A stretch of 60,326 nt of DNA, counting the filler, from Hausera hauseri (taxonomy: Eukaryota): NCBI GenBank assembly GCA_046269625.1. It is 12 parts of 12 records of this genome, joined end to end, with 100 filler letters (N's around TTAATTAATTAA, not from the genome) between each part and the next. Parts side by side here need not be neighbours in the genome. Positions count along the whole stretch, not along the records: positions 1 to 5,010 come from JBJURY010362152.1; 11 more parts are not named here. The stretch is one strand, 5' to 3'. Of the stretch, positions 853 to 55,989 are shown piece by piece; position 1 is the stretch's first letter; each line of letters starts with the position of its first letter. Position numbers and translations under genes: made by a program. A model generated the notes under the pieces. The model was not told where the DNA came from and did no database searches. It saw nothing but the letters and a program-made list of their open reading frames with translations.

Positions 853-3800
853 ATGAATTATTTCGAATTGAAATACGATAAGTCAATTATTCGCGAATTC
901 CGAATACCCGAAAGGTTTATAAACTTTTCTATTTTCAATAAATGAAATTATTGTAGATTTGAGTTGACAAACAACTGCATTAAAATTGAAGGAACCGATA
1001 ATATTTGGCAAGTCAAAAATGATGACAATGTTGAAATGGAACTTAAATGTATTTACAATGGCTCAACAATCGAATTAATATACAAAAATTCCGATACATA
1101 TCAACAATGGACGAATATCTGTTCGATCAATCTCAGTGGGATTTCGTCACATTTCCACAAATCCATTATCGAAATGAGAAATTGCCATTGGATTTCCAAT
1201 TCTCAAATTGTTATCATTTATTTCCTCTATTTTGATTGGAATTATTTTGTTCGATTTGACTGTAACAGATCCCGATTGACAAACGTTGAGAAATTCCCGG
1301 AAAATGCCGTGTTTTGTCGATCACTGTCCAACATTGATTGTGTTGTTGAACCAAATAAACGGATTTTCGTTCTACTTGTCAATGAGAACAAAGAAGAACA
1401 ACAATTTGCCTGTCCTACAATCTGTGAATTGCAGAACATTCTCGACCATCGAATTATTGAGGGATTTCTGAATTTGTTTGAGTTTTGGCGTAAACGATAT
1501 GTGGAGATTAGTGAGAAAATCACAGGTGACGATAGTGATAATATGATGATTTTTCTGCTCATCAATGGAATACCAGTCCGAAAATATTTGGGATTTCTGT
1601 ACGTTCATCAATTGGTGCTTGTCGATATGATACTGGAATATTGCTATTCTTCTACTCTGTCGTCATCTTCGATGTCAATGCATGGTAACAAATTTGTGGA
1701 ACAACTGTTGAGTTTGACTAATGAATACGTGTCTGATGCGTTGGCGGTTTTACATGGAATTGTCAAATTATTTGGGATTAATTTTTCTGAACTGAAAACG
1801 AAATATGAAGGTCTTGGTAAAACAATCGAAATGCTATGCGAAACAAGCAGAACGTGCCGGAAATTAATTGTATCTTCAAGATGGTCACTGAGATTTTTCA
1901 AACGGCGTTTTGATCGCCAAACGTCAACGGATTATGTTGATAGAAATCAAAACAGTTCTTTTCCAACAAATCGACATGATTTTATTAAAGATTGTTTGAT
2001 GTCTGGTAATATCGCTGGAGTATGTATGCATCTTCAACAAACAAAAATTGGCATTCCGTCCAAGAAGGAGTATAGTGATATATCCCATGATATTATCGTT
2101 GGGTCCATTTGTCATCGGGATTGGAATGACTTGAAAGAACTTATTTTGAAATTGGGCTACGAACCGATAAAAACATTGACGTCGATTTGTCTCGACACGA
2201 ATAACACCGAGATTCGTAATTATCTTTTTGATCGATTGAATCTCGCCAAAGATTATCAACAATCGAAATCGATTGTCGACCGTTTGGAAGCTGCACACAA
2301 ATTTCATCAGTCAGAAATCAATTCGAATTCTGGAATCTTTCCAGTGTTCAACGAGACGAAACATTCGGCAATTACCGGATGTTGTTATCAGTTGAAATCG
2401 TTTATGGAAAAGATCGGTCAAATGTTTCCCAACTCAGTAAATGAAAATCCATGGTGTTGTACATCCATCAGTTCTGAATATTCCGTGAATGTTAATGATG
2501 GTATTGAAACGATGAAAGTGTGTTTGAAATGGATAGTCGATCTTCTTGATTGCAACGGTGGAGACATTCAAAAAATATCTAACATCATAGACCTTTGTCT
2601 TATCGATGCTCATTATCAACAAATCATTTTGAAGTCTGATTCGACTTATCCACTGCCAGAGGAACACCTAAAACTATTGTTATGTAAATGGCGTGATAAA
2701 GACAACATTTTGGTTGAATACATCATGGATTCCAATGATGTCGATCTCGTAAATTTTGTATTGAACTCAGAAGCCCCGCATCATTTATTAGCTGATCAAA
2801 TTATTCGAAAGTCTTTGCTGATTCTCAATCCCCAACGGGGCAAAGAAATTATCGACATAAATGAAAATACAGCATTTATAATAATTGGATCTCAGTTAAC
2901 AAAATCACCAAAAAAAGTATTTCAAATTGTCGATGAAATGTTTGTCGATGATCTCCAAACAGCTGTTGACAAATTGTCTCATGCCAGTGTAATTTCACCA
3001 ATCCATTATTCATGTCACAACAAAGGGTGTTGCTTTTCTTTGGAATCAGTTCCTCAGAAGGCATTGAAACGTATTGTAGATGATACAGTGTCTGGTATTG
3101 TACGAACCGAATCAGATGTGGAGTTTCCATTGACGTTGTTTTTTATTCTTGATCACGTCAGCGAATTCACTGTCAAAGTTGATGACATCCAGAACAGAAA
3201 CTTACAGAATACTCTATTATTGAACTCTTTGGTAAAAAATAATTCAAAAGTTGATCTGTTCCGCAGTATCTTACCGTATGACATTTTAAAATGTCAAAAC
3301 GAAAAATATTCTATGATACAGTTGGACGAAATTGTTTATGCAGCTTTGTTTTCTGGAATAACGTATGATGAAATAATGCAGTCGTCTGATCCTTGTCTCA
3401 CTGTAGTTCGAAATATTCTTGTGAAGAATAAATACTGGGACAATCTCCGAAATAGGCTCATTCGACCTAAAAATTTGTGCGAATCGTCCACAAACATCGA
3501 AGAATATTATGAAGTTAATCTGTACAATTTTCTCAAACGTTCAGGCTTTCCTTTATCGTTAGAAACAATGTTTGGCTGGCAAGAGCATAATAATTTTTCA
3601 GACAAAGCAGCCGTGGGCTTGCACACTCCGGATCTTAATGATATTCAAAAGAAACACAGTAGTCTATATTCGTACAAATGTAGTTTGGATTACATTTATT
3701 ATTTGGCTTTGGGACGGCCGTATCAGGCATTTGTCAGTATTGTTAACGAATTTTCGGTCAGTGGTAAGATACACAGTATGCCATCTGATACTGTTCGAGA

Positions 3801-4030
3801 CGTTAATCGAAGTGTTTACCAATTAGCATTTTCCAATATTGACTCACCTCAAATAATTGGTGCATCATTTGCTTTTCTTCGATTGATTGGTTCAAGTACT
3901 GAACCGTTAAAGTGCTATCTTACGATTATTGAATGGATAATTGATTGGCACGTGAACAGTTTTCAACAGAACGATAATTTTGAGTGTTCAGAGAGTCACG
4001 TGACATCCGATTTTCGGTCCTATTTTACGA
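853..4030 (+). CDS. SPG11: Spatacsin (SPG11)-like N-terminal/central portion
   Basis: LKLGYEPIKTLTSICLDTNNTEIRNYL, NLYNFLKRSGFPLSLETMFGWQ, LDYIYYLALGRPYQAF and IIGASFAFLRLIG resemble spatacsin LKNMGFDVKGQLLKICFYTTNKNIRDFL, SRLFGWQ, FAYYLHNGRPSFAF and IGAACVCFLELLG. Confidence 0.85.
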
Positions 4031-5010
4031 AAAAAATCGCTTTTCAAATAAATGACTTTTATAAACAATGTCAGGGTTTACTTCAGAGTGAAAATACTGG
4101 CTATGCCGTGAATTCCGGGCAATATAAAACCTGGAAGCGAACCTGTTGTTTGAAAGAACATCTATATTATTGTTTAAGTTATTACTATATGACCCTTGCC
4201 GCTGAAGAGGCCAATAAATATGGTGAAATTGTTGCTTGGCTGAAATTGGCCAAAGAACGATTGGAAAAATGTAACAAACCGCTCAAGGAATTAAAAAGTA
4301 GTACTGCTGATGATACAATGAAATTCGTTTTCGATGTTGTAAATGGAAAATTTGAAAATAGTAAAAAGGATAACGATTTCATCTATCATGACAAAATTCC
4401 TGAATCTATATACAGTGAACGAAAAGCCGGAATAATCAGAGAAATTCAAAAAGAGATTGATGAAAAAAATGAGGAAATTCAAAACTTTCTGACAAAAATC
4501 CAATGGAGCAACGAAAATTTAAAAATTATTGATTCGGACGCCCCACAAGATCTGTACAATTGTGCCGCATTTTTGTCGGCCAATCCAGATATTTTATCAA
4601 CAATTAAAAACACCATGAAAGACATTTCTTCAATAAGTATTGAAGTTGAAGGATCATTTGAGACTCTGTCGAAAAAAATGCGCTCAGTCACAATCGACAA
4701 ATGTTTGGAATCATGGAAAAAATTTGAAACGCAATATTCCGAATTGTTAAGTAATTTTGAAGATGCAAAAGATTCCAATCTCCAGTTACGAGAAGCATTT
4801 TCATCCACTGTCCAATCCTTGAAATTATTGGATCAACCCATTGATAGTTTTGTCGAAAGTCTACCGACACTAAAACATCTGTCCAACGATGGAGACGTTA
4901 AATCATCTCTGTACGAAAGCAAGAGACTTTTAGACATCACGATTGGAGTTGACGGATCACTTTTCTGCTATCATCCGAGTTTTGCATCCAATATGCATGC
5001 TGTTATAAAA
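853..5010 (+). CDS. Chimeric open reading frame: spatacsin N-terminal half fused in frame to an HD-PTP BRO1/V fragment and a hexokinase fragment; runs off the contig end
   Basis: Exon 853-914 (MNYFELKYDKSIIREFRIPE) splices in frame to 957-5010. There is no stop for over 4 kb, and three distinct homology blocks are recognisable. Confidence 0.8.
915..956 (+). other. 42-nt spliceosomal intron
   Basis: AAAG|GTTTAT...TTGTAG|ATTT. It contains an in-frame TGA, and removing it joins ATG853 in frame to the long ORF. Confidence 0.7.
4033..4930 (+). CDS. PTPN23: HD-PTP (PTPN23)-like C-terminal BRO1 half plus start of V domain, with an internal deletion near 4405
   Basis: KIAFQINDFYKQ, AEEANKYGEIVAWL, FVFDVVNGKFENSKKDNDFIYH, YSERKAGIIRE and SNLQLREAF...LKLLDQP match HD-PTP. 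The roughly 45 aa normally between FIYHxxxP and YSEEKA are missing. Confidence 0.85.
4933..5010 (+). CDS. Hexokinase C-terminal domain fragment
   Basis: DITIGVDGSLFCYHPSFASNM matches the hexokinase TVGVDGSLYKxHPxF motif. Only 26 codons before the contig end. Confidence 0.65.
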
Positions 5011-12553: not shown

Positions 12554-13084
12554 CTATCGTGATTGACGTCTTAGATTTGTAGAATCCCATTTTTTACCGA
12601 TTCCTGTAAAAGGTGTAAGTAATTTAAATGGTAATTTAAACGGTGCATTTGACACTTGAATGGTAGACTTGACAATTTTATTTATGTAAGGTTCTTTAGG
12701 TCGGTAAATAAGGGTTCGCATGTATCGTTGTATTCTAGTAATGTTATATGAGCACGCATAAGCATATAAAGGTGTTATTGAGAGATAATTAGAATACATG
12801 ATCCAACCTTTGACTTGGGAAGGCAATGGTCGAAATTTTTGAGCAATATCTTTTGGAAATTGTGTATAAATATCTGCATTCATATTTTGGTACAACACCC
12901 ACAGCCGTTTGTCTGTCAAATTTAGTTCATGATATAAATAGGCATATTTTATCGAGAGATAATTCTCGTCGTCTTTATCGATGTCTCGACACAACGGGGA
13001 CAATTTATCAGCAAGATAATAACTGTAATAAATTCCTGTAAGACGTTTGTTGATTGAATCTGTGATTTGGATAAACTGCCCCAT
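12554..13084 (-). CDS. Unidentified Tyr-rich ORF (176 aa)
   Basis: ATG-started open frame of 531 nt in AT-rich DNA; no recognised domain. Confidence 0.3.
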   Translation of the reverse strand: MGQFIQITDSINKRLTGIYYSYYLADKLSPLCRDIDKDDENYLSIKYAYLYHELNLTDKRLWVLYQNMNADIYTQFPKDIAQKFRPLPSQVKGWIMYSNYLSITPLYAYACSYNITRIQRYMRTLIYRPKEPYINKIVKSTIQVSNAPFKLPFKLLTPFTGIGKKWDSTNLRRQSR

Positions 13085-13420
13085 TATTTCATTATATCCT
13101 TCACTGGGAAATCGTCGACGAACATTATGTTCAAGATCACATATAGACTGACACCATTGTAATGAGAATATAGAATGAGAATATATAATTTCAAAATACG
13201 AAAAATAAGCCCAAATACAATTATAAACTTTTATTCAATTTTTAAATTTACAAAATCTATTATTTCAATATTTCGTTAAATTCCATTGACAAGTCAATAA
13301 TCCAAAGACACAAAAATTAGGATAAAACATGTACAACATCTACAAAAGACACACGAAAACAGATTGAAGATTAAAAACACGGAACAAGCATAAAAAAATT
13401 TCATCACAATAATCACTGAA

Positions 13421-13906
13421 TCATCTTTTCAAAGAAACCATTTCACATTCCGTTTCTGGGTCTTCTTCATCTTCGACATTGTAATCACTATCTTCGTTGG
13501 CTCTCATCGGATTTTTGATGCATAACGAATGAGACATATTGTCCAACGTGTCATTGATCGGATCGGCAGGTTCTTCATGTATCTGATCGGCATGTTTGTC
13601 GTCAACACACACCGGCAGTGGCTCGGTACAATTTTCAACTTTTGGAATTTTCGATCTGATCGGATTTTCGGTATCGGATGCACCGTTATCTATTTCGTTT
13701 CGTTTTTTTCGTTTTGACAGATTCCAATTTGTCAGTCGACCCCATGGCTTACAATTCGATTCAGACATTGAATCAGAGTCGTCTGAAGAATCATACGATC
13801 CTGAACTAGAGGAAATGAAAGGTGACATTGAAGACTTGTCAGAGAAAAACTCGTCTGATTCTTTGCCGTACTTGTTGTGCGATTTTCTTGTTCGAGTACT
13901 CGACAA
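13421..13906 (-). CDS. Low-complexity Ser/Asp/Glu-rich ORF with a basic cluster (SKRKKR)
   Basis: 161-aa open frame with disordered composition; no family recognised. Confidence 0.25.
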   Translation of the reverse strand: MSSTRTRKSHNKYGKESDEFFSDKSSMSPFISSSSGSYDSSDDSDSMSESNCKPWGRLTNWNLSKRKKRNEIDNGASDTENPIRSKIPKVENCTEPLPVCVDDKHADQIHEEPADPINDTLDNMSHSLCIKNPMRANEDSDYNVEDEEDPETECEMVSLKR

Positions 13907-14299
13907 AATATTCTACATAGATATATTCACAAAATTTAATCTTTTTTACATTCGAATTTTTGTTGCAATTTTAATCTGAGACTGTTCGACTTTGACAATT
14001 TTTTTGATAAAGATATTGGGACAATACTAATCGCCCTCTGGAATATTCATCAACGATGGCTTTAAACACATTGCATGATGACCTAAATCACACGAATAAC
14101 ATAAAAGAATCATTTCAGGTAAATTATCACCCAAACAAATTTAGCAGGGCTTTTCTTCAGTATCTTCAAATTTCTCGATGGCCATTAGTTTCTTTTGACG
14201 AAAATGATTTTGACCCCTGGCTTTTGAGGTTTCTTTATCGCTGTTCTGATTTGTGGACGATTTAACATGAATCGGATTGTTTGCGTGATTACTAGTAGA

Positions 14300-14349
14300 C
14301 ACTGTTTCTGTGGTGGGGCCAGAGTCCGCGGCACCACACTACCCCCCCC
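14300..14349 (-). repeat. Polypurine tract and start of the 3' LTR of the family A element
   Basis: The minus strand reads GGGGGGGGTAG (14349-14339) immediately followed by TGTGGTGCC (from 14338), downstream of integrase. Confidence 0.75.
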
Positions 14350-16490: not shown

Positions 16491-16594
16491 ATAGTAGTTA
16501 CTTAGTTTTACTTGGCCTTATCCTATATCCCACATTACTTGATCAAGAAAACAACACGATATTTCTATACAACATTTATTAACAATAACAATAT

Positions 16595-19500
16595 TTAGAA
16601 TGCCACATGTCCGTGAGGTAGTGAATAAATTCCATCGCTCAGGATCTGACTCTTGTCATTCATCCAATCTAGGCCTTTTTCATGCAGTTTTACTGTTTCG
16701 ATGTTATGATCCCTAGATTGTATACTTCTCATTTTTGATATGATGTGAGTCTGCTCATGCTGAACTCTCGCGTAGTCCTTAAAACTGATATTCTTGGTTA
16801 CGGTCGTCCTTTGAGCGCCCTTAGCTCTGTTTTTGATCTGACCACATACATCAATCGCATACATTTTGGACCTAAGGGCCATAAATCTCCAGATGATTGC
16901 TCCATTTACCTCCTCTTTGAATTTCCCTATGATTTTCTTATTGGAAATTGAATAGTTGGGATGTTCCTTCGGATAGTCTTAGGTATCCATGTGTTCAGCC
17001 AATTTGGAAAAGTCCTCATAAATATCCTCTGTATGAATCTGATAGATGAAACTATCATTATCCATGTACATTAGCTGCATAGACTTTAATGTGGGGACCA
17101 TGATGTCGTAGTGGAAAGGATGCATCAGGGTCTTTGACAGGTCGCGGATTGCCATACCGACATGTATGGGCTTGTTGAATACCAATGCTGTTTTCGGCAT
17201 ATGGATTCCTACCAAGTTCTCCGTATATATTGTGTTGCTGTGGAAGTTAGGCTTGGCGATGAGCTTCTTTGCCCGCTTCCAGTAGCATACCAGCTCAATG
17301 TTGATCCTGTTGCGGATATTCTCCATGGTCTTGACAAAAACGCTGTTGTTATATAGTTTAAATTGGTCTTTCTCAAAGTCATTCTTGGCATTAGTCCGCA
17401 GCTTCGTTAAGTCGATTCGGCCATATACTTGTTATTGGCCTCACTATACCGATGAATGGCCTGGAATATTCCGCCTCTTATGCCTCTCTCGATCATAAGG
17501 ATCATATCATAATCCTTAATGATCTGCAGCCTAATACCAGTATAGCGCAGCATCACAGCCAAACTCATTCCTGGAGTCGTAAAGAAATGATCCGGATCCA
17601 AAGCATGGCTTTTCCCTGTAGCACCCTGAAACTCTCAAAGACGTCTATCAGCAGCAGTACATCAGTTTGGAGATATACATTACTATATTCCCCTATTGTC
17701 CTGCATTGGAATGCCTGCCAGACGTTGTGAGTATGCTGGTAGTCAGCATCACTAATATGGCAATCAGAGAGGATATAGTAAAAGTCCTTCTTGAAGGGAA
17801 AAATCGCTTCATCCCCTTGAGTTCTTCTGCAGCGAGGATCTTCAATAAACTGTTCAGTGAAGACGACATAAAGCGAAAACTGTCTGTGAAGCGAAGTCGG
17901 ATTTTACTAACATACTTAGTGAAAGTAATATATTTCTCCTCACTGCTGGGGATCACATCTATATAGTCATCAATGTTGCCTAATTCTCGGACTATGAAGT
18001 GGCTGTCATAGCCGCTGAGATTGTGGAATACTACAGCACAAATGTGCATGCTTTGGAGCGAAGATTGCAGTTGTTGCATGCTGCATCTCTATATGTTACT
18101 GTAAATGGAAGTGATTCTTGACTTTCCAATTTACCTTGGTTAAGGACTTGTCGCATAAGTAACATGCTGTTGTCTTGCGCCATTCTTCTTCTTCTTTCCA
18201 CGACATAATCATATTACCCTTATGCTGCCGAAGCATGTTTTGAAGCTTATGAGCCATGTCTTCAAGTCGTTTCATGAAATGTGCTGCTGCACCTGGACCT
18301 CTGAATAGAAATGGTTCACATTCCAGTCCTTTGGCATACATGCAATACAATGAGAGTTCATGATATTAATATGCCGTTGTGCTGCTATGTTGAGCACTGG
18401 GAGTGCAACTCGGAATTAGTCTGAGAATAGCTTTAAAGTCGCAATAGACGACAATTGGGACCTTCAGCTTCTTCTGGAACTCCTTGAATTCAATATAGTC
18501 CTCCTTGAGAAATTCTGGACTGATACAGTAATTGTTGCTGCAGTACATCTTGTGTTCTGCAAGCCTGTCCAGTGCAGTATCACCGCTAAAATGAGACAAG
18601 CATCGCTTACAGATCTCAATTTTTCCATGATGATTCGTAATTTGGGATCTTACTAGACTTTCAAAATTCTTTTTCCATATGTAATGTTTCTTTTCTCCAT
18701 CGCCTAGTAGGAGCAGATCCCTATGATCTTCCAATTCAGTATAATATATCTGCAGTGGATAAAATTTGTCCTCCTCATCCAATCCAATGATGTTGATGGA
18801 TATATTGTTGATTTTACTGAGCTTCTTGACTTCATCTATGGATGGCGGGCACTTAATACATTGGAAGTCATAGTTGTGCTGCAGATCATTATATATATCC
18901 AAATTCGATCACCTGCATGTTTTTGATCCTGTAAGAGTTTTGATAGAATGGCATACATGAAACACATGTCGTTATTATTGACACTTACACATGATTTTTA
19001 TTAGCGATCCAATCAGAGAGCTGAATATATGAACTACCCCGCATGGGAGAGTACTTGTGAAAATACACAAGCAATCTCTTGATAGTTGCCAGAGTCCATC
19101 CACTCTTCTTATCCTGGCTGTCCTCAGCCTCGTGGATCAGCTTCTCGTGCTCATCTTCCATCCATTCTGCTATATAGGTGTTTTCCAATAATGGTCTATT
19201 TCTGGTCTTGAAGACACTTTTGAACTCTTCGCCATCAATATTGACGTAAATGGCCTCAAGTTTCATATTAACCTTAAGGGCTTTGAGCTCAGCTATGTTA
19301 TCCTGGAGAATCCCTATTGTTTCTTCCTCTGTGTACTCCAGGAACATCCTGATGGTTGTTTGGCCAGTTGCATCAATGACATATTTGCGGACTTCTCTCT
19401 TTAATACTGCAGCATTAACTGGCCTCTGTCTTTGGCTTTTTGGTGGAGCCGCTGCGCCTGATGCGCCTGATGTGCCTGATGGCCCTGATGCACTTGGATA

Positions 19501-20067
19501 TACTGCTGTGTCTGGCTGTGGTACTGCAGTCTCTGCTGCTGCAATTGGCTTATGTTCATTAAAGATGATCTTCTTTGACTTTGATGCGAAGTCTGTCAAA
19601 TAGGCAATATGATCTTCGTAAAATTGCAAGTATTCTCCATCATATACAGCCTCACATCCTGGGCAAATATAATAGAGGATCCTATTGAATTTGTATCCAT
19701 AATAGCTCCTCATAGTATTATGACAGTTCTGAGGGTTGTGTATTGCACATGTGCAATACATGTATGAACTGCATCTTTGATTTCGCTTAGGCATGGAAGT
19801 CATTATTGGCATAATGTTTTTCAACGTGGTGAAGGGAATTAAGTGTTGTTTATGGACATTGTAAAAGTCTTCATAATTGGTTCGGTACACTATCTCACAT
19901 GTAGGGCATATATAATACTGAAACCTGTTGTATAGATGGCTAAAGTACTTTTTCATAATATTGTGGAAATTTTGTGGCTCGCGGATTTTATCGAAGCATT
20001 CTCTGTAAAGTTTGTACATCTAAAAATCAACTAATTATTTGAGGAGAACAATTAAAAAACTCACCAT
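16595..20067 (-). mobile_element. Polinton/Maverick (adintovirus-like) protein-primed family B DNA polymerase pseudogene
   Basis: GSSYIQLSDWIANK, VVYCDFKAIL, FHNLSGYDSHFI, FTDSFRFMSSSL, IERGIRGG, MENIRNR, NKPIHVGMAI.DLSK, LMYMDNDSFIY and RAKG...DK...SLPHGH. Many frameshifts and deletions. Confidence 0.93.
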
Positions 20068-20970
20068 TTCTTGAAGTGATTGTAGAAATAATGAAAAAAT
20101 ATGTCCATATCACCATGTACTGCCTCGCTTATTGATTGGTTTTAATGCACTTTTGTTTTAATGCACCAACTAAATGCACGTTGGCGCCAAACTCCATTAG
20201 GTTTTCGTATATGGAGAATCGAATGGCGTCATTGGATTCTTCGAATAAAGCATTCTTGACCGAATATTCGAGTTCGAATAGCTAATTTTTCGACTTGAAA
20301 GCTCGAATTTAAATATATAACATCATATTCCCAATAGGCACGTATTTATTTCTATCTGCCTCCGCTAATTATTATATCGAATTTTGAGTGCTAGGAGCAA
20401 ATAAAACCTATGGAAATGTTAGGATCTCTTAATTACCAAAAAATCTGAATTAAAAAAGCCAAAAAATCGATTAGAATTCCAAATTGCCCTTTTCGAGTTT
20501 GAAACCTGTGACAGAAATAACCATTTCCCCAATTAACAAAAAATCCCAAAAAGTAAAAATCGAAAACGGGCTTGATATCCAAGAATCCAGATAAACAAAT
20601 TCAAAAACTGCATTAAAAAATACCAATCCAAACCGAAACAGTTCAAAAAGCAAGTTAAAAAGCCACAGAACAAAATTCAAAAAAGGCATCAAATGAAAAT
20701 CAAAAAGTACAAATTTCAAAAACACTGAAACAGAAATTTATCACCAAAATTCAGCGACTTTTCTGTACAGTGAACCGATGCAAACTTCGAGCATCGAACC
20801 GTACCCAGAATGACCGGTTTGGGCGTCCGATTCGTGGTCCAGAGAATCAGAGACAGTGTGATTGTGATCCGAAACATTGACGTGAATAACGTTATTTTGT
20901 GATCTTAAACTTTTCAGTTCAATCGTTACTGTGACTATGTGAATATTTTGTTATAAATAATAAATACTTG

Positions 20971-21070: not shown

Positions 21071-21141
21071 TACCAATACTTGTTTCAAAAAATAGTCAGT
21101 ACCTACCAATAAATGTTTTTCCAACGTTTTCACAATTCAGT

Positions 21142-21639
21142 AGTCGAGCAATCACGATGCAAAATATTCAAGCTGCAATATCCAAGTCAATGGTCGAAAT
21201 CGCTCGTACCCAGGATGAAGAAGTTGGAGATGGAACAACTTCTGTCACAATATTAGCTGGTGAATTGTTGTCTCAAGCGGCACCGTGCTTGGAGAAAAAA
21301 ATCCGTCTAAACCAAAATAATAAATTTATATAGAGAAGCACTCAAAGACGTGTTGGAATTTATGAAACTAATTGCAGTGTGAAAATCAATCCGAATAATC
21401 GCGACGAATTATTGAAAGTTGTCAAAAGCTGTCTTGGTACAAAATTCGTCAACAAATGGTCCAACAGGGCCTGTATAATTGCACTAGATGCAGTTTCAAT
21501 TATCATGACAGATGAAAATGATCGCAAGGAAATTGACATAAAGCGTTATGCCAAAGTAGAAAAGATCCCTGGTGGAAGTATCGAAGATTCCACCGTTCTG
21601 TGTGGTGTAATGTTCAACAGGGACATTGTTCATCCGAAA
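21142..21639 (+). pseudogene. CCT3: T-complex protein 1 subunit gamma fragment
   Basis: [27 protein letters not shown] and [37 protein letters not shown]. Frameshifted, with an internal deletion after NIQAA, and truncated. Confidence 0.92.
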
Positions 21640-22930
21640 AATGTTAATAATGTAACAATCCCAGTGGACACGAGTCAACCGAATCCAAATAAAGTGGAAT
21701 TTGACAATTTATACTTAGACATGAATGGTATTATTCACCCATGTACTTGCCTGGAAAATAAACCTGCTCCAAAAATGAAGACGAAATGTTCTTTGAAAAT
21801 TTTGCCTATATCGATCTTATATCTTCAGTGATACGACCAAGACGATTAATTTACATGGCAGTTGACCGTGTTGCTCCCAGAACAAAAATGAACCAACAGA
21901 GATCCAGACGTTTTAGAGCTTGCAAGGAATCAAGAAAAAAACGATTGACCATTGACAGAATTCGAATGGAATTATTGCAAAAGGGTGCAAGATTACCCGA
22001 TCCAAATGACCCTTCGGAACATTTCGATAGCAACTGCAAGGCGAGATTGGCGATTTCCTTGCAGTATTATGCATATTTGGAATTGAATTCAGATCCAGGA
22101 TGGAAAAATATCCAAGTCATATCGAATGACGCTAACGTTCCTGGTGAAAGAGAACGTAAAATAATGGACTTTATTCGACGTTAGAGAGCGAATCCAACAC
22201 ACGATCCGAATACCAAACACTATTTATGCGATGCAGATGCCGATTTGATCATGTTAGGATCGTCAACGCATGAGTCATATTTCACGATAATTCGAGAAGA
22301 ATTCATACCCAATCAGCCGAAACCATGTGAAATCTGTGGTCAAACCAATCATCTAATGTCCGAGGGTTAAGGATTAGACAGTGTGGAATTTAATATCGGT
22401 ACAAGTTCTTCGTTACCAGAGACTGAGTTTATTTTTATTCATTTGAATATCCTACGAGAATATTTGCAACAAGAACTTGAAATGCCGAATTTACCATTTC
22501 CACACGATTTTGAACGAGCAATTGATGATTGAGTTTTTATATGTTTCTTTGTCGAAAATGACTTTTTGTTGCATTTACCCGGTTTGCAAAAATGAGAAAA
22601 GAAATTGATAGACTGGTGAAACTGTACAAATCAGCTGTGTATAACACGAGAGCATCAGTTTTGAAGGTCCTATAAGAAACTGAGGACAACAACGATACGG
22701 TTATTGATCCACAGTTGGAGCACGATGTTTGTGACCGCATATGGAGAGACAAGGTATCCAGTTTACCAGGCAACACTGTACATAATGCTAATGTTCTTTG
22801 TGAAAATGTCAAAGATATTAAAGTCATATCGTCATACTACAAAGATCCTTAATTTTATGCCGATTACATATTTAAAGCTCGTTTGTTACAAAATGTAATC
22901 GGACCGAATACAATCAAGACCGAACCTGAA
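21640..22930 (+). pseudogene. XRN2: 5'-3' exoribonuclease 2 fragment with internal deletions
   Basis: [83 protein letters not shown] and the C-terminal KDP*FYADYIFKA. Stops and frameshifts present. Confidence 0.93.
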
Positions 22931-23649
22931 AGGAAAAGTTTAATACTCAACCAGTTAATCGAGTGGTTAGTCATCCATTTGGAGAAAATTCTAACATCAA
23001 TAATAAACACAAATTGACTTCTAAACATTTGTTATGTAATCCGAATATCAGTGGGTCCTTAGTTGGGCAGGGTTCACGAAACATCAACGCAAATACGTAT
23101 ACGGCTGAAGGCAGTGATGAAGTTCGTCAGATCGTCTATCTGGCTGTCGTACCCAAAAATCATACTCTGCAGTTGTTCTGGACCCATGATTTATAAAAAG
23201 GTCGGTGAATTTGCTACATTTCTATTTCGTAATAATTTGTAATATAATGCCAACCAAAGTAGTTCAAACACTGCACTTAACATCTCTCAGCTATACTATA
23301 CCGTTGGTCAAAAATATATCAGTCGAATCATCACAAACCAAATATATGATCTCCGCTATTAGAAAGATCAGTCATTACAATGCAGGGATCTTGGGTGCGC
23401 CCACGTCTTATGCACCACATTGCGCACCCGACCTCTGACAATTTTACCCCACTTATTTTGTTATTTCAAAACAAACATGCACAAACTTACTACATTTATA
23501 AATTAGCAGCAATTTCAAAATTGTCGGGCATACTACAACTACAAACTGCTTTCACTAATTTCCTTCTCAGCTTTAACGAATTTTTCCTTCAACAATCAGA
23601 CAATAACAAGTTACACCCATTTACCCTCAATACCTATATTGACCGTACA

Positions 23650-25473
23650 CCACCGTCTCTTAGGTGGATCTGATCCAAATGCATCTTCTAAAGACCAACA
23701 AGATTGCTGATATCCCAACTATAAGTATACCGTTAAATTCACCTCTACCTCCTGCACCTACTGTAAATCTACCTTGCGTAGAATACTTCGTCGGCAAGCA
23801 ACACTCTAGTCGGGCGTGGCTGGATTTTTATGCGCTTGGTTGAATTAAAATAATATTGTCGATTCGTTCCTTAAAGCAAACAGTTTGCCTATACTCTTGC
23901 CTTTTAACATTAAGTCGCAACTTCCAAATTTATCGGAAATTTTCCAAAGTAGGGACTCATAAAACATTCTTTAACGCTATTTTAAAAATCACCGAACCAT
24001 CCATAGATAACATCATCCATAAATATTTTAACAACAACACAATAGGAACATTGAAACCCTCTGAATTTATACAAACCTCACCAACTCAATTGAGTACCCT
24101 TGGCGTTAATGAATTAAATAACGCCGATTTGCTACGTAGGTATTTTCTACAGTCTTTACCAAGAGACATACGCGCACTATTAACAATAGTAGAGGACAGA
24201 TCGTCACTACAAAAACTAGCACAACTGGCTGACAAAAGCCACGACGTCTTACATGCAAATACAGCCCCATTAATTGCCGCTACGTTTTATGCACCAACAA
24301 CTCAACAAGCTAGCGACATAGCTAATCTGAACTCATAGATAAATTCTTTACGTGTCGAAAACGCCAACATACATCAAGCGATTTCTGCACTCACGTCAAA
24401 AATCGAAGCTTTGACCATTCCTAGACGAAATCGTTTTGATGCGAACCATAGCCGCACCTCATCTCAAAATTCAAGGCATGCAAGGTCATCTACACGGTCA
24501 ATAGTGTGTTACTACCACACCAAATTTAAGGACAACTCCACTAAATGCTGTTTAGGTTGCAGATTGTATGCTCCCCATTTCACACGACCCGACATTGTTT
24601 GTATTTATCATAACAAATTTAATTCTAAAGCACATAATTGCGTTACAGGTTGCACTTTCGTTAACCGATCTAATTCACCACGACCTACTCTTTCTAACAA
24701 CATAAGTCCTGTGCCTCAAAAAAACTCATAAAGCCGCCAGATGTTTCGGCACATACTGGCACAGGCAAACGTCTTCAATCTAATAGCCGTACCTACGCTG
24801 TTTTCACATTAAAAGCCTCCTTAACATCCAAACCCAATTAACCAATCAACTTTCTCATCGACTCGGGGGTACTGTTTCGTTGTTACCACCATCTATCAAA
24901 ACACCATTCATATCACCATCTAACGCTAAATTATACACAGCTAACGGCCAAGTTTTACGCATTTTAGGCACGTCCAAAGTTTCATTCACTTTACCACCAT
25001 TCTGAGACATTTTCAATTGAAAATTCATCGTTGCCGACACACAATCTCCAATACTTGGGTCTGATTTCTTATCCTTCTACAACCTCCTTGTAGATTGCAG
25101 ACAATGTCGGATCATTAAAGCAGTTCAGCAAAGCCGACCCCTACAAATAACCAACCGATCATGAGGCCTATCTTAATTATAAAATCAATATTGAAGAAAC
25201 CATTAACCAATGTGAATAAAAACCTTACTGATAAAACCAGTATAAACAATCCTACTTTTCTGTTAAAGTCCTCTTTAGGCGGCCCGATTTCTACCATTTC
25301 TCAAACTAAGTTCAATCAAACATTTACTACGCCTAGCCAAGAAATGCAACAATATTTAGTCAAGTCTTGTTTTCATACAATAAAAAAGACCTAGCATTTC
25401 GACCGGTTAACACGATGTTTCATCATATCATTACAGAAAATCTTAGGCCCGTTAGGCAGAAACTCCGCCCACT
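23650..25473 (+). mobile_element. Ty3/Gypsy gag-protease-RT start (family A), degenerate
   Basis: FLQSLPRDIRALL...LQKLAQLADK, tandem CYYHTKF...C / CIYHNKF...C knuckles, FLIDSG protease motif, PILGSDFL, and HHIITE...VRQKLRPL. Confidence 0.9.
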
Positions 25474-25537
25474 AGTAGTTGTATAAGGAGGGTTATGGAC
25501 CGTAACGCTCCTTATACAACTACTAGTGGGCGGAGTT
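25461..25537. repeat. Near-perfect hairpin at the contig end with an AGTAGT...ACTACT core
   Basis: 25461-25490 is the exact reverse complement of 25508-25537, and the loop GGTTATGGACCGTAACG is itself quasi-palindromic. Confidence 0.9.
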
Positions 25538-34571: not shown

Positions 34572-35744
34572 ACGGAACACCCGACACCGACTATATTTAT
34601 TTCCGACCCGCACGGACTAAAATTTATTAAGAAAGAGATGATGACACGCTGTGATAAAGTAATGTTCGCCACAAACTACGAAGCGTTCTTTGTGCCGAAA
34701 CAGAAATAAACGCGAGAACTTACAAATTGAAAACGCAAGACGTTCGGATTGAGGACTACCTGAAAAATAGGGACGATTATTTCTACTGTAAAGGACAAGT
34801 CGGAATAACAGAATTATATCATAAAATGATAATGAATGATAATAAGAACTATAATGGCTCTTATATACGCAAATCCAGAATTAGCTTCTCCAATAATTTC
34901 CATGAGAGAAGGAATTTTCGGTCGAGTTACGGGCGAAGTATTACTAACCTATGAATGTGAAAAAAGAGAACTACCTATCAGCGTAGAAGAAAAACGTTGT
35001 ATCCAAGAACTTCCTGTTATTTACCAGTATACTCCAAGATTAGCTACACCATTGACGAGAGTGTTGTTGGATAGCGCGACACAACTGATCATTCTTAAAG
35101 ATTGTAAATCAGGCTTAGGAGAACCAATGTTTCGACGTAGCGAAACAGACTGGGTTAGTTTACCTAATGGAGATATCACTGCTGCTCCTAACAAGCTAAC
35201 AGGGACGAATCTTGCGAAGGGTATTACAGACGATAAATTTCAAGACATCTCGTCAAAAGGTATATACAGACCAAAAGAAATTGAAGCCTTCAGACAATTC
35301 CCCGCCTTTCCACGACAACGAACACATGAGCTAAATCGAGCTATGGCGTCTGTAGTAGACGATACACGATATCAAGCTAAATGGGAATCATTACTTGGCG
35401 TAAACCACTATCAAAGAGTGACAACAGAAATACTCTATAAAATTTGGGGAAGATTTTTGATTTTTGGACAAGCCGCATCAGGATTTTTAGCGATATACTT
35501 TCTGATACAAATGATTAAGTCGGTTATCCAAGCCGTGATAAACGGATATGAAATATTTACACTAACCGGATTTTTATGTAAAATTCTGACTGCAATCATA
35601 ACGCCTTTTGGAAAATTCTTAAAAGCATATGAGGAAAGTAGATGGAAATCGGACGTAGAACGTCATGTCGGTTACTATAATCGTAAACGAAGAGGGAGAC
35701 CGTTATTCCTACAAAAGCGGAAGTATACAAAACCTATTATATGA
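34572..35744 (+). CDS. Chuvirus (Jingchuvirales)-like envelope glycoprotein, C-terminal half
   Basis: GRVTGEVLLTYEC...CIQELPV...ATPLTRVL, SSKGIY...IEAFRQFPAFPRQR and IWGRFLIFGQAASGFLAIYFLIQMIKSVIQAVINGYEI mirror chuviral G (VAGEVIHIVKC...CYxQLPV...TPRTHIL, TSGIY...LRDHIMFPAE, WxKFLxFGxxSAG...IxHGYAL). Confidence 0.85.
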
Positions 35745-38700
35745 AGAAATAATTCAGATGATGACGAGCCTAAGGGAGGAGAAGCGCTTGTAGGAATAAA
35801 TAGACATAAGATGTACTCCGTCATGAAAGCGCCATTGCCCATGTTACCTCCTACCGCTCCATTCTACGAAGATTGCGACAAACGATCCATGAGCTCATAT
35901 CAAACGGAAATCTATAAAAGAACAATTAATGTCGAAGATCCTTATGAAGGAACGAAACGTTACGGAATTCTACGGAAAATGTGCTACCGACAATCCGCAG
36001 ATGATCCCAAAGTGTTTTATTCACCGAGAGAATCTAAAAATATCGAAACTAGATCTACGGTTTGGGACAAACCCAGATTTAAAACCTTCCAACATACTGA
36101 ACTACATACCAACAATCGAGAGCCGCTAATCAGTACTCACGAAATGGAAGAACTGCATGTAAAAAACAATGAATTATATTCCGACGAAGAATTAAGACAG
36201 TTATCGGGAAACATAGTATCCGCCCCAGAAGTACGAATAAACGGACACAAAATATCAGTAACTAAATGTATGAAAATAGCATCGAATTGTTTCGGAACAG
36301 TGATCGAAGGAAGACCGTTCGCCAAAATCACTATTGAGGATTGGGAAGTTTATGCGTCAAGTTTATACATCAAAAATAATTCAATACCTCAAACGCTAAG
36401 AGGACAGTTATATCCGCCGTCTACGAAAGATCCGGGTAGTATAGGAGCTTTTGGCCAAATGTCAAAACCAATGTTTAAATGGAACCCAGAAGTTCATTTA
36501 GTTTGGCAAACATTTCGACACAAATTTGCGATCATGGAACAATTAACTGACGACGTTGTTCTAGGATGCAATTTATTGAAAAGGTTACCAAATATAGCAG
36601 TCGACCTACAAACAGGAAAATTAATAGAAATCAGGCTCAATAAAGGTGTGAAAAACTCTAATAATAGAAAATTTGGGGAAGTGTGGATACCAGTAGACGA
36701 GAATATTCCACCAAGAACGGAAATAATAATTTATGCACAAATTCAGCAAGATGACGATCATCCAGTATACTTCGAACCAAAGGAAACGTTAAATCCAAAT
36801 ATAACGCTCAGTAATGTACTTACGAGAGTACATTCTGGTCGTGTGCCGATCAGAATAGCGAATAATGCACCAACTCCTATCAAATTCCATGCTTATACTA
36901 CTCTAGGAGATACGTATAGAGTATCGTCAATAACCATTGAAGAAAAGCCTTATAAGTATGCCGAATTTCCGCCTCATGTTGAAACTAAGTTCTGCCCGGA
37001 ATTCTACTATCGATTTTATGAATTATTATGCCACTATAAATCAATTATTGCTAAGGATAAAAATGATAGCGGTAGAGCAAAAGCGTTAAAACTGACTGTT
37101 CCGCTCAACAAAAAGCATGATTCAAATGAAGAAATAGATTTGGAGGATCAGAAGATTCCGAAACAATACCCTCCACCACATTCGCTAAGACTTGAGTAAA
37201 CAAAGGAAGTCGAACGAATGCTTAAGGCCGATATAATTATGCTCAGTTACAGATCCTGGTACTCGCCTATCCTTATGGATAAAAAGAAAGGCACCATGAA
37301 GCACCGATTTTGTATCGATTATAGAGCTCTAAATAATCTTATGATGAAAGATTCTTTTTTAATGCCATTAGTGAAAGAGGCCTTAGACAGACTCTCAGGA
37401 GCAAAATAATTTACCACTCTGGAACTACAATCCGAATATTGGCAAGTGGAAATAGAGGACGAAGACCGCTATAAAACAGCGTTTAAAACACACGATGGCG
37501 TTTATGAATTTAACGTCATGCCGTTCGGTATTACTATCGGATTAGCCATATTTACAAGAATGATGAACAAAATGTTAATGGGACTGGATCATGCCTTTGC
37601 GTATTTAGATGACGTGATAATAGCATCGAGAACAGAAGAAGAACACTTAAAGGATATTGAACACGCACACTGATGAGATTGGAACAAGCCGGATTGAAGT
37701 TAAATCCGAAGAAATGCAAATGGGCTCAAAATGCAATATCCTACCTGGGTCATATAGTTAGAGAAGAAGGATCGAAACCAGATAAATCGTTATTGAACAA
37801 AATATCAGATTGCATGGAACCACAAAATCAGAATGAGTTAAGACACTGGTTAGGTCTCTGCGGATATTATGCAACATATGTGCCGGATAATTCAAAGATT
37901 AATTCACCTGTATATCGTCTGCTTAAAAAAGGGATTAAATGGAAATGGACAGACGTGGAACAGAAAGCTTTTGATGAGAGGAAGAAGATATTAACAAGCG
38001 AAACCGTTTTGCGATATCCAGATTTTAGCTTACCCTTTATAATCAAGACAGACGCCAGTAAAGAAGGCATTGGTTATGAATTAGCACAGAAAAGAATATG
38101 AAGAATTAGAACACCCGATTGCTTATGGAGGACGTTCCTTAAAAAGGCCGAGAAAAATTATTCTGTTACCGAATTAAAAACTCTAGCCGTAAAAGAAGCA
38201 CTACGCCATTTCAACGTTTACGTATACGGACAGAAAATTATAATTGTTACCAATCACAATGCTGTTACGACCTTAAGGGCCGAGCAAATAATCCGACATG
38301 CAGGCTTAATAAATGGATCGAAGAAATCTCCAGATATAACATTGAATTTCAGTATATGCCAGAGAACAAACATGTAGACGCAGACGCCCTATCGAGATTA
38401 AAGATTAAAACAAGCGCAATCATTACAATGAAGAAAAGTCAACTTGAGGAAGTAATAGACCGCCAAAGAGCGCTAACAATGGATAAGGCCATTAAAATTT
38501 CAACTGAACAAAGAAAGGATAAGGTCGTCCAGCAGATTATAGAATTCGCCAAGAAGGATGTCGTACCAAGAGGACGAGAGTTAAAGAAGCATTTAAACAG
38601 ACTCGGACATAAATATTGCGTCTTGAATAACAAGAGTAAAGAAGATATTTTATATTACGAGCGAAAAGGAAGGAAATTGATAGATATCCCAAAGAGTTTA

Positions 38701-39780
38701 CGAACCGAAGTGCTGATGTCAGAACATGATTCATACTTAGCCGAACACATGTCCTGGAAGACATTAGAAAGAATAATAAACAAGTACTTTTGGCATAGTA
38801 TCTATATTGATGTGAAAAATTGGGTAAATGCCTGTGAAGTGTGTGCAACTAAGCAGAAAAAGACGAAAAAATACATGGCCGAGTTAAAACGAATTGATGT
38901 ATCCGATAGGCCCATTTAGGCCATGTCGATGGATATCGTAGGATCTCTTCCTACGACTCATAGGAACAATAAGTATATGTTAACGTGCGTCGATCGCCTA
39001 ACTCATTTTGTCAAAGTGGTAGCATTGGTTGATCAGAAGGCGGAAACTTTAGCAGAAGCAGTAGTAAGAAGAATCATTTGTCGATACGGACCACCTGACC
39101 AAATATTAACGGATAGAGGTAGAAACCTTACCAGTGAACTTTTCGAGAAGATTACCAAGATATTTGAAATCGAACGATTAACCACTACCGCATATCATCC
39201 TGAGTGTAACGGGATGGTAGAAGGCATGAATGCTACCATCATACGTATATTATCAACAGTTGTGGCAAAGGGCCAAAAGGATTGGGATGGATTTTTAGAA
39301 GGAACTCAATTTGCGATTAATACTACACCACATTTAGTAACAGGATTTACACCATTTTTCATGATGTATAGTTGTGAAGCTGTGTTACCTGCAGACTTAG
39401 TAATGACGCCATACACAGTCAGTCTCGAAGATTTGGAGCAGAACTTTGCAGAAGTATTGCAGACACGATTACAAAAATGTTGGGAAATTGCCAAGGAGCT
39501 ATTTTAAAAATATCAAGAACAGTTTAAAAAGCAATATGATAAGAAAGCGAAACCGCACGATCTAGAACAAGGAAACTGGGTTTATGTACATTATTCGGTA
39601 GCCAAAAAAGGCACCTCACTAAAATTGACTTGTACGGGTAGAAAACCGTATGAAGTCACCAGAGTCACGCCAACCACAGTGTATATTAGCAAGAATGGAA
39701 AAGAAGAAGTTGTGTCAATACAGAGAGTTGTCAAGACAGAAATGCGACCCAGCAAACGTTATAATTTACGCCAACGTTGG
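35745..39780 (+). pseudogene. Linker plus Pol (protease, RT, RNase H, integrase) of family B copy 1
   Basis: VVLGCNLL (protease end), RFCIDYRALN, KTAF...MPFG, AYLDDVII, IKTDAS, HVDADALSR, H..H...CEVC, MDIVGSLP, ILTDRG and HPECNGMVE. Confidence 0.95.
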
Positions 39781-41211
39781 GTAAAAACATCCTCAATAGT
39801 TACTAGACCAATATCATATGTTCAGATAGTTTTAGCATTATCACTAATTGCCTCCTACATCCCAAGAATACAAGCGCAATGGTGGCATGATGAATCCACA
39901 TTAGGAGATATATACGGAATTCGGAAGAGTGGATCGAAATCGGAAGCAGATAAAACGGAGAAGAAACCAACAGCCGAACAAATTCAAAGACAAGAAGATA
40001 CTAAATTGTTACAATCGATGATAATTCACTATTATTCGCCAAACGCAGTATGATCGGATTTAAGGTTTGGAGGCCACACCTTGATTTTGGAAAGTTTCAA
40101 ATTGTCTTATTTGACCTAACCACAAAAGCAATGAAAAATTGTAATTTCGAACCTGGAGAGAATATCCAGTGCTGCGACAGATTTTGGACGCACGTATAAC
40201 CTCACCTATCGTCTCTACTTGCCAGACTCATCCGAAGTTTATCTTGAAACAAAGCCACATTCACAATTAATTATCCCTGCATGGAACAGACATCATGGAG
40301 TAAAACTTAATGAAATATTACGATCTACTGACCCAGATATAAGAATATTAAACGAAAATATCCAGATAATCTCTGTGAATAAGGACAAACAATGCATTCA
40401 AGTAGACGCTAGAACAGGATTAACTTTTAGTCAGGAAATTAGTATTACGTTTGAAGCAACAGATGGACTGACCCCAAAAATAGAATATTGTTCTATTCGA
40501 GCAGGCGTACAAAGTCCATGAAGTAAAATACCCGTAAACCAAGAATTCAAGATAAGATTTGACTTATATGAAGTACGGCCTAATAAATCAAGTGTACAAC
40601 TTCGAACTTACTATCCAGAAAATAAAATTTGGAAAATTTTAGTAGAGACAACCACCAGAAGACCGGCAACTCAAGTTAATACCGTTACGACAACCGTTAC
40701 GTCGGCCAGTGTGCCGAAAAGAGAATTAGGAAGCATTCCTATTAGATATTCGGTATATCGGTCTAAGATTGTGTTCTTTGTGGAAGGAAAACAAAATTAC
40801 AATATACATAAATTGTCGGACAACGTATAATAATCAAGCTGTGACATTATTTAAAAATACTTATCAGAGTGCAATTTATTAAAACCACAAACCAAGTATG
40901 TAGTACAAGTATACGCAGAGAATAAGCAAAATCAGACTGTTACATTGCAAACTTTAGATGAGATTCGCGCAGAATCCCATGCATACGAGGATATAGATGG
41001 ACAGATCACAACTCCGGTCACCACACAAGCCCCAATGGGATTAACTACGCTACCAATCGTATCCATCTCCATATTGTCAACATTTGTTCTCATATTAATC
41101 GCGATTTTTCGGCTAGTTACCAAAAACTGCTATTCTAAGCGTTCTGAAAACTCAGAGTGGGAATTAAGGAAACTGGAAACCTCTGTTGATCCGTATGATA
41201 AAATAACCTGA
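39781..41211 (+). pseudogene. Type-I membrane protein fused in frame after integrase (signal peptide, FN3-like domain, Thr-rich stalk, TM, short tail)
   Basis: After RYNLR: YVQIVLALSLIASYIPRIQA (signal-like), TTTRRPATQVNTVTTTVTS, LKPQTKYVVQVYAEN (FN3-like), IVSISILSTFVLILIAIFRLV (TM) and tail YDKI. ORFs 38923, 39625, 40219 and 40945 share one frame. Confidence 0.7.
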
Positions 41212-41540
41212 CAACTACAGAGCGGGTTATTCTATCATCTAATAAAGAATTGATTTAATTTTAAAACTATCCTTTGTCGTAAGATTAATCCTTACTGTTT
41301 ATTTTTCAGACTGATGAGTAAAGAAAGAAATACGGAAGCAAACACCGGACGACCTAGGATCGACGTATCACAATCTACCCAAGAGTCAGAACAATGTAGT
41401 ATCGATAAATCGCCGAAACGCCGATTTAGTATCGACGAATTCTTGCAGAATTATGCTACCATCTTCCTCCCAAATTCTAAATCGATATATAGAGAAATAC
41501 ATAACGTACTACATGAGAAAACCTTCGTGAAGTATGATCG

Positions 41541-44070: not shown

Positions 44071-44225
44071 TTTATGTCTGATCCATTCAGACAAATTTTT
44101 ATGTACATATTGTAAATATTGTACATATTTTATTCACATTATATGAATTATGTGATGGAATGTTGTTCGGTTTTCACGCAGGAATATGCTCATTACATAA
44201 GCTCACACACAGGCCATGACAAAAG

Positions 44226-45374: not shown

Positions 45375-45470
45375 GAGAAAAGCATCAATCTGTTCCACTG
45401 TCTAAGTGAACTAAATGATCAGTCCCTGGTGGAGGAAATCCAACAATCTCTACAAACAGGAAGTCTCTGC
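45375..45470 (+). pseudogene. Fragment of a teleost NLR-C (NACHT-LRR) family gene
   Basis: EKSINLFHCLSELNDQSLVEEIQQSLQTGSL is the characteristic post-NACHT motif of fish NLRC3-like genes. Confidence 0.8.
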
Positions 45471-55985: not shown

Positions 55986-55989
55986 TTCA

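What the first reader, a model, noticed from the sequence alone, without database searches (positions are those of the whole stretch)
853..5010. Uninterrupted triple chimera SPG11::PTPN23::hexokinase
One stop-free reading frame joins the N-terminal half of spatacsin (to about 4030, junction in an A7 run), the second half of the HD-PTP BRO1 domain plus V-domain start (with an in-frame internal deletion near 4405), and a hexokinase piece (from about 4933). Three junctions all keeping strand and frame is unlikely by chance. A retained 42-nt intron at the 5' end shows the SPG11 part is genomic rather than a retrocopy. SPG11 and HD-PTP both act in endolysosomal trafficking. It could be a young expressed chimeric gene, a product of serial deletions across neighbouring genes, or an amplification/assembly chimera.
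Basis: partly seen in the sequence, partly recalled or inferred. Interest (0 to 1): 0.72.

Follow-up and report, generated by a model that had tools for sequence, protein, structure and literature searches.

The report
Three-gene in-frame composite, probably junk
Pieces of three unrelated housekeeping genes are joined head to tail into one unbroken reading frame in an unidentified invertebrate, and a decayed two-gene join of the same build lies on a nearby contig, which suggests this genome tends to stitch gene fragments together, although an assembly error is not excluded.

Summary
Window 946-5010 is one stop-free frame of 1,355 codons: spatacsin/SPG11 to the A7 run at 4030-4036 (independent profile 66 bits, best of 200 shuffles 3.2), then HD-PTP BRO1 residues 205-326, an in-frame skip of about 42 residues, half the V domain, and 26-28 residues of hexokinase before the contig ends. 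No domain is complete, so a functional SPG11/HD-PTP synergy is unlikely. Keeping strand and frame at three joins is less improbable than it looks (p about 0.02-0.03 if joins use 6-8 nt microhomology). New here: another contig of the window carries a CCT3::XRN2 composite with the same build (same strand, in-frame join, internal deletions) but decayed by nonsense transitions and frameshifts, which argues that such joins arise in vivo. Best reading: a young, probably non-functional composite made by microhomology-guided template switching or serial deletion in a duplicated DNA copy (retained 42-nt intron). Rivals: reverse-transcriptase switching; library or assembly chimera. Parents, reads and taxon could not be obtained.

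The parts
853..914 (+). probable first exon (ATG, 20 codons + 2 nt)
   Evidence: 32% GC like the ORF, coding score +1.7 bits in frame, joins exon 2 in frame; weak on its own
915..956 (+). 42-nt GT..AG intron with in-frame TGA
   Evidence: 17% GC, coding score -8 to -12 bits in all frames
957..4036 (+). spatacsin/SPG11 segment: partial beta-propeller, helical hairpin/linker and first half of the alpha-solenoid; no Spatacsin_C
   Evidence: significant at 1969-2265 and 3508-3990; N-terminal part matches two unnamed relatives P0003/P0004 at 32-34%, fold order
4030..4036 (+). junction 1, SPG11 to HD-PTP, within an A7 run, in frame
4033..4404 (+). second half of the HD-PTP BRO1 domain (human residues 205-326)
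4399..4407 (+). junction 2, in-frame internal deletion of about 40-50 codons (BRO1 tail and linker)
   Evidence: PTPN23 326 then 5LM1 residue 8; yeast Bro1 ~331 then ~380; BRO1 profile ends at 327 of 385
4405..4932 (+). first half of the HD-PTP V domain
   Evidence: (5LM1 8-188, E 2e-11)
4930..5010 (+). junction 3 and hexokinase C-terminal fragment (ITIGVDGS...HP.F), cut by the contig end
1..322 (-). stop-broken frame resembling a gypsy gag start, pointing away from the composite
   Evidence: translation; label recalled, no Pfam hit, no match elsewhere in the window
21071..22930 (+). second, decayed composite on another contig: CCT3 N-terminal part joined in frame to XRN2 at ~21634-21645, with a 21-nt in-frame deletion at ~22037 and a ~300-codon internal deletion at ~22640-22657

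Best explanation
A real, young genomic composite, most likely a dead-on-arrival or proto-gene copy. A duplicated DNA copy of the SPG11 5' region (upstream DNA, first exon, first intron) was extended by successive polymerase template switches or deletions guided by short direct microhomologies: SPG11 to HD-PTP in the A7 run, a short forward jump inside HD-PTP, then HD-PTP to hexokinase. Because microhomologies between coding sequences often come from shared codons, the joins tend to stay in frame. The same process made the CCT3::XRN2 composite on another contig, which has since decayed; this one is its uneroded counterpart. Shown: identities, join positions, frame, intron-like stretch, second decayed composite. 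Inferred: microhomology at the joins (parents not available), DNA rather than RNA level, young age, lack of function.
For: Three different genes, same strand, open frame. Intron-like 42 nt and AT-rich non-coding DNA upstream point to a DNA source. Second composite: CCT3 residues to ~229 then XRN2 from ~30 in one frame, a 7-codon in-frame deletion of the conserved ITPGTPF stretch, Pfam XRN_M positions 2-34 followed within 60 nt by positions 354-438; its stops align to Q and W codons, i.e. single transitions, about 8 disablers in 1.8 kb by my count, as pseudogene decay gives and in vitro joining does not. 5 of 5 tool-supported joins are in frame and 3 of 3 inter-gene joins are sense-sense; p about 0.002-0.004 under the microhomology null. 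In-frame share of exact sense matches between the ORF's own unrelated parts rises from 0.37 (3 nt) to 0.46 (8 nt). At joins 3 and CCT3/XRN2 the flanking residues fit both parents (L-D/L-K before ITIG; H-P-K against CCT3 H-P-R). No inverted or duplicated block in contig 1. The setting is transposon-rich short contigs, as described for composite-forming loci in Drosophila where DNA-level copying dominated 7 to 1 (bioRxiv 10.64898/2026.08.09.743762, section 13).
Against: No parent gene was found, so microhomology and duplicate status are untested (3 of 3 word-index searches gave 1, 0 and 1 hits). All inter-gene joins land coding-to-coding and sense-to-sense with no filler, and 4.05 kb of three genes has no further intron, which suits an mRNA template pool at least as well. 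4 kb without a single disabler against 4.5 per kb in the other composite (expected 18) also fits an artefact built from intact genes, or selection. The contig is short, unplaced and ends inside the ORF. The scan for inverted or out-of-frame joins elsewhere in the window was incomplete (49 of 119 candidate frames plus 9 others; 6 of 35 planned read-throughs), so the 5 of 5 count may be biased towards joins that are easy to see.
Confidence: 0.4

Rival explanations
1. RNA route: a retroelement reverse transcriptase switched among hexokinase, HD-PTP and SPG11 transcripts; the chimeric cDNA either ended on an unspliced SPG11 pre-mRNA or recombined into a genomic SPG11 copy, leaving the native first intron in place, as in reverse-transcriptase-mediated intron loss.
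For: Sense-sense, coding-to-coding joins with no filler; internal forward jumps; only a 5' intron; abundant gypsy-type elements in the window. Multi-gene chimeras with median 6-bp microsimilarity are described for LTR retroposition (PMC5131818 passages); 5'-biased intron retention by cDNA recombination is discussed in PMC7738191 (passages).
Against: Retained intron and upstream non-coding DNA; no LTR or same-strand gag upstream, the gag-like remnant points the other way; for CCT3::XRN2 the nearest LTR (23238-23379, TGTAAT..ATTACA) is a 5' LTR downstream of the composite, so it does not enclose it. No A run of 10 or more on contigs 1, 5 or 12, but contig 1 ends before a tail could be seen.
Confidence: 0.27
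2. Library, amplification or assembly chimera built from intact genes.
For: Short unplaced contig among 12 of 4.2-7.0 kb joined by artificial linkers; all pieces look intact; contig 5 ends in a 77-nt hairpin; one contig has different GC and CpG content (0.47 GC, CpG o/e 0.52), suggesting mixed DNA in the assembly.
Against: More than 85% of MDA rearrangements were inversions (PMC1855051 abstract) against 0 of 3 here, and contig 1 has no self-repeat; assemblers need longer overlaps than unrelated genes share (inference); the decayed CCT3::XRN2 composite shows the same build with accumulated nonsense transitions.
Confidence: 0.22
3. A selected, functional new gene: a truncated spatacsin scaffold with a new helical C-terminus, kept open by purifying selection.
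For: 1,355 open codons, native-looking start and intron, three joins in frame.
Against: No complete domain; SPG11 function needs both the WD40-hairpin and the extended solenoid (bioRxiv 10.1101/2024.06.14.598999 passages); no protein with this architecture among the 7 representative hits or the word-index hits; its sister composite decayed.
Confidence: 0.08
4. One ordinary contiguous gene misread as three.
For: The first ~340 residues are not significantly assigned to SPG11; the hexokinase match is short.
Against: Abrupt switches between three families at defined residues, with half-domains.
Confidence: 0.03

Closest known systems
Tinkering loci of Drosophila (Weisman, bioRxiv 10.64898/2026.08.09.743762; abstract, section 4 part 1 of 3 and section 13 read)
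   Same: Fragments of unrelated genes placed side by side within kilobases in transposon-rich DNA, forming composites; DNA-level copying
   Different: Here the fragments abut coding-to-coding with no transposon or flank between them and stay in one frame and strand; dispersal of the parents and transcription are untested
LTR-mediated chimeric retrocopies, e.g. Drosophila CG4799_CG11924_r, maize Bs1 (PMC5131818, passages read)
   Same: Partial copies of two or three genes, short-homology joins expected, sense orientation
   Different: No enclosing LTR element found; an intron and upstream non-coding DNA are retained
Pack-TIR and Helitron gene capture (PMC8277862, PMC4224331; passages read)
   Same: DNA-level capture with introns; microhomology at breakpoints (Pack-TIR); bias to promoters, first exons and first introns, sequential capture (bat Helitrons)
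   Different: No terminal repeats or element ends seen on the contig; joins are gene-to-gene; copy number unknown
Spatacsin (SPG11), HD-PTP (PTPN23) and hexokinase families
   Same: Clear homology of each piece
   Different: Each is a fragment: no Spatacsin_C, half BRO1, half V, no HD-PTP tail, only the end of hexokinase

Membership tests
LTR-mediated chimeric retrocopy | enclosed by two halves of one LTR retrotransposon | tested here: inconclusive
   No same-strand LTR/gag in 1-852; 3' side lies beyond the contig end
LTR-mediated chimeric retrocopy | intronless copy of spliced mRNA | tested here: not met
   42-nt intron-like GT..AG stretch at 915-956; splicing itself not shown
LTR-mediated chimeric retrocopy | microsimilarity at the switch points | not testable with these tools
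   Parental DNA not found; only residue-level compatibility
LTR-mediated chimeric retrocopy | partial copies of one or more genes in sense | tested here: met
Tinkering locus | high local density of gene fragments | tested here: met
   three genes in 4.1 kb on contig 1; two on contig 5; PHD fragment on contig 3; no genome-wide background available
Tinkering locus | fragments dispersed from distant parents | not testable with these tools
   no eukaryote genome collection; parents not located
Tinkering locus | re-transcription of the fragments | not testable with these tools
   no RNA data
Pack-TIR / Helitron capture | element termini around the cargo | tested here: inconclusive
   no long inverted repeat bracketing the ORF; contig ends at 5010; Helitron ends not searched specifically
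MDA chimera | mostly inverted, local joins | tested here: not met
   0 of 3 joins inverted, no self-repeat in contig 1; the minority direct class is not excluded
Spatacsin (full member) | colinear alpha-solenoid homology | tested here: met
Spatacsin (full member) | Spatacsin_C domain | tested here: not met
   no Pfam hit in the ORF
Spatacsin (full member) | seven-bladed WD40 plus hairpin | tested here: inconclusive
   model pLDDT 61 shows about 12 strands then helices; propeller matches Z about 8, spatacsin not listed
HD-PTP (full member) | complete BRO1 and V domains | tested here: not met
   BRO1 profile 204-327 of 385 only; V to residue 188 of a 352-residue construct
Hexokinase (full member) | both Hexokinase_1 and Hexokinase_2 domains | tested here: not met
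   only Hexokinase_2 positions 187-211 of 242

The most novel reading that the evidence does not exclude
This lineage has an unusually active, genome-wide route to composite genes in which coding sequences of expressed housekeeping genes are joined directly, in sense and preferentially in frame, onto native 5' ends with their first intron (for instance chimeric cDNAs from reverse-transcriptase switching recombining into gene copies, filtered by nonsense-mediated decay over repeated rounds). With two, possibly three, composites on 12 short contigs, there could be hundreds of dated examples from intact to decayed, and the SPG11::HD-PTP::hexokinase frame would be a transcribed newborn.
Probability: 0.2. 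Interest if true: 0.75.

Novelty: new variant of a known kind. Interest (0 to 1): 0.47.

Why it matters
Chimeric genes from three unrelated parents are rare in animals, and the known routes leave transposon sequence at or around the joins. If reads confirm these joins, this genome offers a series of composites of different ages in which template level (DNA or RNA), microhomology use and frame bias can be measured directly. If reads do not confirm them, the lesson is practical: the unplaced short contigs of this assembly hold convincing-looking fusion genes that annotation would report as real. The single fusion protein itself is unlikely to teach anything about SPG11 or HD-PTP biology.

Tried and rejected
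Parent search: word-index searches with the HD-PTP/hexokinase region (1 ALIX-like hit among 4,747 candidates), the BRO1 half (0 of 311) and an N-terminal alignment (1 hit among 8,000, the input P0004 itself) found no close parent; these searches missed even ordinary HD-PTPs, so absence means little. Atlas look-ups and cluster look-up returned nothing, so the names and taxa of P0003-P0009 stay unknown. P0005 is a low-complexity repeat hit and was dropped. Single-sequence phmmer of the ORF did not find human spatacsin in PDB; the profile hit is dominated by the spatacsin rows and is not independent evidence, hence. hhalign of the N-terminal part against spatacsins was not significant; fold searches did not list spatacsin. 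A plain pairwise alignment to the ALIX-like P0002 did not open the deletion gap; the deletion rests. The frame of the long XRN2 deletion could not be shown against PDB, so it is left out of the 5 of 5 count. A third candidate (GPCR-like to helical-repeat fragment, ~55990, minus strand) has only Pfam E 0.007 for the GPCR and no tool support for the second part; its join may be out of frame; left out. A 46-nt GT..AG stretch near the CCT3 start does not restore one frame when removed; not counted as a second intron. Rfam: no match. Literature: a search on spatacsin, HD-PTP, fusion, BRO1 domain listed 20 of 72 papers, none containing 'spatacsin'; searches showed no report of this composite; subscription papers and bioRxiv supplements were not visible, and the supplements of the tinkering-loci preprint may bear on frame and strand bias.
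Full report
Context. The window is a bin of 12 contigs of 4.2-7.0 kb joined by N44-TTAATTAATTAA-N44 linkers; the finding fills most of the first contig (1-5010, possibly cut by the window start). Most other contigs hold decayed mobile elements: hAT, Harbinger-type DDE and a viral-type fusion glycoprotein by Pfam, gypsy- and Polinton-like frames by my reading (labels recalled). GC is about 35%. The host is an animal, by inference an invertebrate; its taxon was not determined.

The observation. 946-5010 is open for 1,355 codons. The first 1,028 codons are spatacsin: of 7 hits among 1.84 billion representatives, 4 are spatacsin-like and 3 of these carry Spatacsin_C. A profile from those 4 alone scores the ORF at 66 bits in two colinear stretches; the best of 200 shuffles reached 3.2. 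The matched region ends near residue 1,345-1,370 of a 2,631-residue spatacsin. The first ~340 residues match two unnamed relatives at 32-34%, fall in the right order, and model as about three propeller blades followed by helices (pLDDT 61), the order known for SPG11 (bioRxiv 10.1101/2024.06.14.598999, passages), but the direct profile comparison is not significant. Whether the short propeller is a lineage trait (N-terminal loss is described for insects in 10.1101/2020.03.08.982389, passages) or another deletion is open.

From the A7 run at 4030-4036 the frame is HD-PTP: PTPN23 residues 205-326, then at once residue 8 onward of the V-domain construct 5LM1; yeast Bro1 likewise aligns to ~331 and again from ~380, and the Pfam BRO1 match stops at 327 of 385. 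So 40-50 codons are skipped in frame. After about half of the V domain the last 26-28 codons are hexokinase (glucokinase E 1.3e-4, Pfam E 0.0046) and the contig ends. The 42-nt GT..AG stretch at 915-956 has 17% GC, an in-frame stop and a non-coding score, and is followed by coding-like sequence; the exon before it is plausible but weak.

How unlikely is it? Random joins would keep strand and frame three times with p 0.009. Exact matches between the ORF's own unrelated parts are in frame in 42-46% of sense cases at 6-8 nt, so microhomology-guided joins give p 0.02-0.03. That is suggestive, not decisive, for one contig picked from many.

A second case. Contig 5 starts with CCT3 (to residue ~229) that continues in the same frame into XRN2 (from ~30). 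The XRN2 part lacks 7 codons of a conserved motif, in frame, and jumps from Pfam XRN_M position 34 to ~354 within 60 nt. It is broken by stops at 22182, 22368, 22530, 22593, 22673 and 22850 and by frame changes; two of the stops align to Q and W, single transitions. This is pseudogene decay on top of the same architecture: 5' part of gene A, direct join, internal deletions, 3' part of gene B. A gypsy-like 5' LTR (23238-23379) lies downstream and does not enclose it. Counting only tool-supported joins, 5 of 5 are in frame and 3 of 3 inter-gene joins are sense-sense (p 0.002-0.004 under the microhomology null). I left out the long XRN2 deletion (frame rests on a recalled motif; one search did not show it) and a GPCR-like/helical-repeat join on contig 12 that may be out of frame. 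My search for inverted or out-of-frame joins was partial (49 of 119 candidate frames plus 9 others; 13 and 6 read-through frames), so the count may be biased.

Mechanism. The decayed twin argues that these composites form in vivo; MDA chimeras are more than 85% inverted (PMC1855051, abstract) and contig 1 has no inversion or self-repeat. The retained intron and non-coding upstream DNA favour copying from DNA, by microhomology-guided template switching or serial deletion in a duplicate (0.40). Sense-only, coding-to-coding joins and 4 kb without another intron favour reverse-transcriptase switching among mRNAs, as in LTR retroposition (PMC5131818, passages), with the cDNA ending in or recombining with a genomic SPG11 copy (0.27); no enclosing LTR was found. 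An artefact remains possible (0.22), because the contig is short and unplaced, every piece is intact, and 4 kb without a disabler contrasts with about 18 expected at the twin's rate. A selected function is least likely (0.08): no domain is whole. Microhomology itself, duplicate status, age and expression are inferred, since no parent was found and no eukaryote genome or read collection was available.

Comparison and novelty. It works like the composites of Drosophila tinkering loci (preprint sections read), LTR chimeric retrocopies and Pack-TIR or Helitron captures, but is not shown to be a member of any: intronlessness is not met, element ends are not seen, dispersal and transcription are untested. 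What differs is direct gene-to-gene joining with frame and strand kept, on a native-looking 5' end. No report of an SPG11/HD-PTP fusion appeared (20 of 72 papers listed, none with 'spatacsin') or in searches; this covers open-licence papers only. Verdict: real in the sequence, probably real in the genome, probably non-functional; a new variant of a known kind whose interest lies in the possible genome-wide process rather than in this protein. Interest 0.47.

Noticed in passing
window 21071-22930 (+): Decayed CCT3::XRN2 composite with in-frame join and internal deletions; a 46-nt GT..AG stretch at 21095-21140 may be a retained intron but does not restore one frame.
   Followed up: yes
window 55716-56900 (-): Frameshifted GPCR-like sequence (Pfam Srw E 0.007) runs into a 90-codon helical fragment that resembles the MROH1 C-terminus by recall only; possible third composite.
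   Followed up: partly
window ~13424-14340 (-): Stop-broken PHD finger (Pfam E 2.6e-5) followed by an acidic low-complexity frame and an unidentified 226-codon frame at 12557-13234.
   Followed up: partly
window 41641-46073: Contig with higher GC (0.47) and low CpG (o/e 0.52), holding a DDE_Tnp_4 transposase piece and DIRS-like remnants (label recalled; look vertebrate-like); possible host or contaminant DNA in the assembly.
   Followed up: partly
window 34572-41540 and 46174-51200: Two gypsy-like elements 71% identical over 3.6 kb; the first carries a Monjiviricetes-type fusion glycoprotein frame upstream of the gag/pol-like frames (34836-35741, Pfam E 1e-32).
   Followed up: no
window 23238-23379 (+): 142-nt LTR candidate with TGTAAT..ATTACA ends followed by a primer-binding-site-like motif and a gypsy-like gag.
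   Followed up: partly
window 25461-25537: 77-nt near-perfect hairpin at the very end of contig 5; element end or library artefact.
   Followed up: no
window 16491-20970 (-): Broken frames resembling a Polinton-type protein-primed polymerase region (label recalled, no Pfam hit for the frames tested).
   Followed up: no
P0003, P0004: Two unnamed relatives share the short SPG11 N-terminal region; both diverge and end near ORF residue 270-280, as if reading into an intron that this sequence lacks (inference).
   Followed up: no
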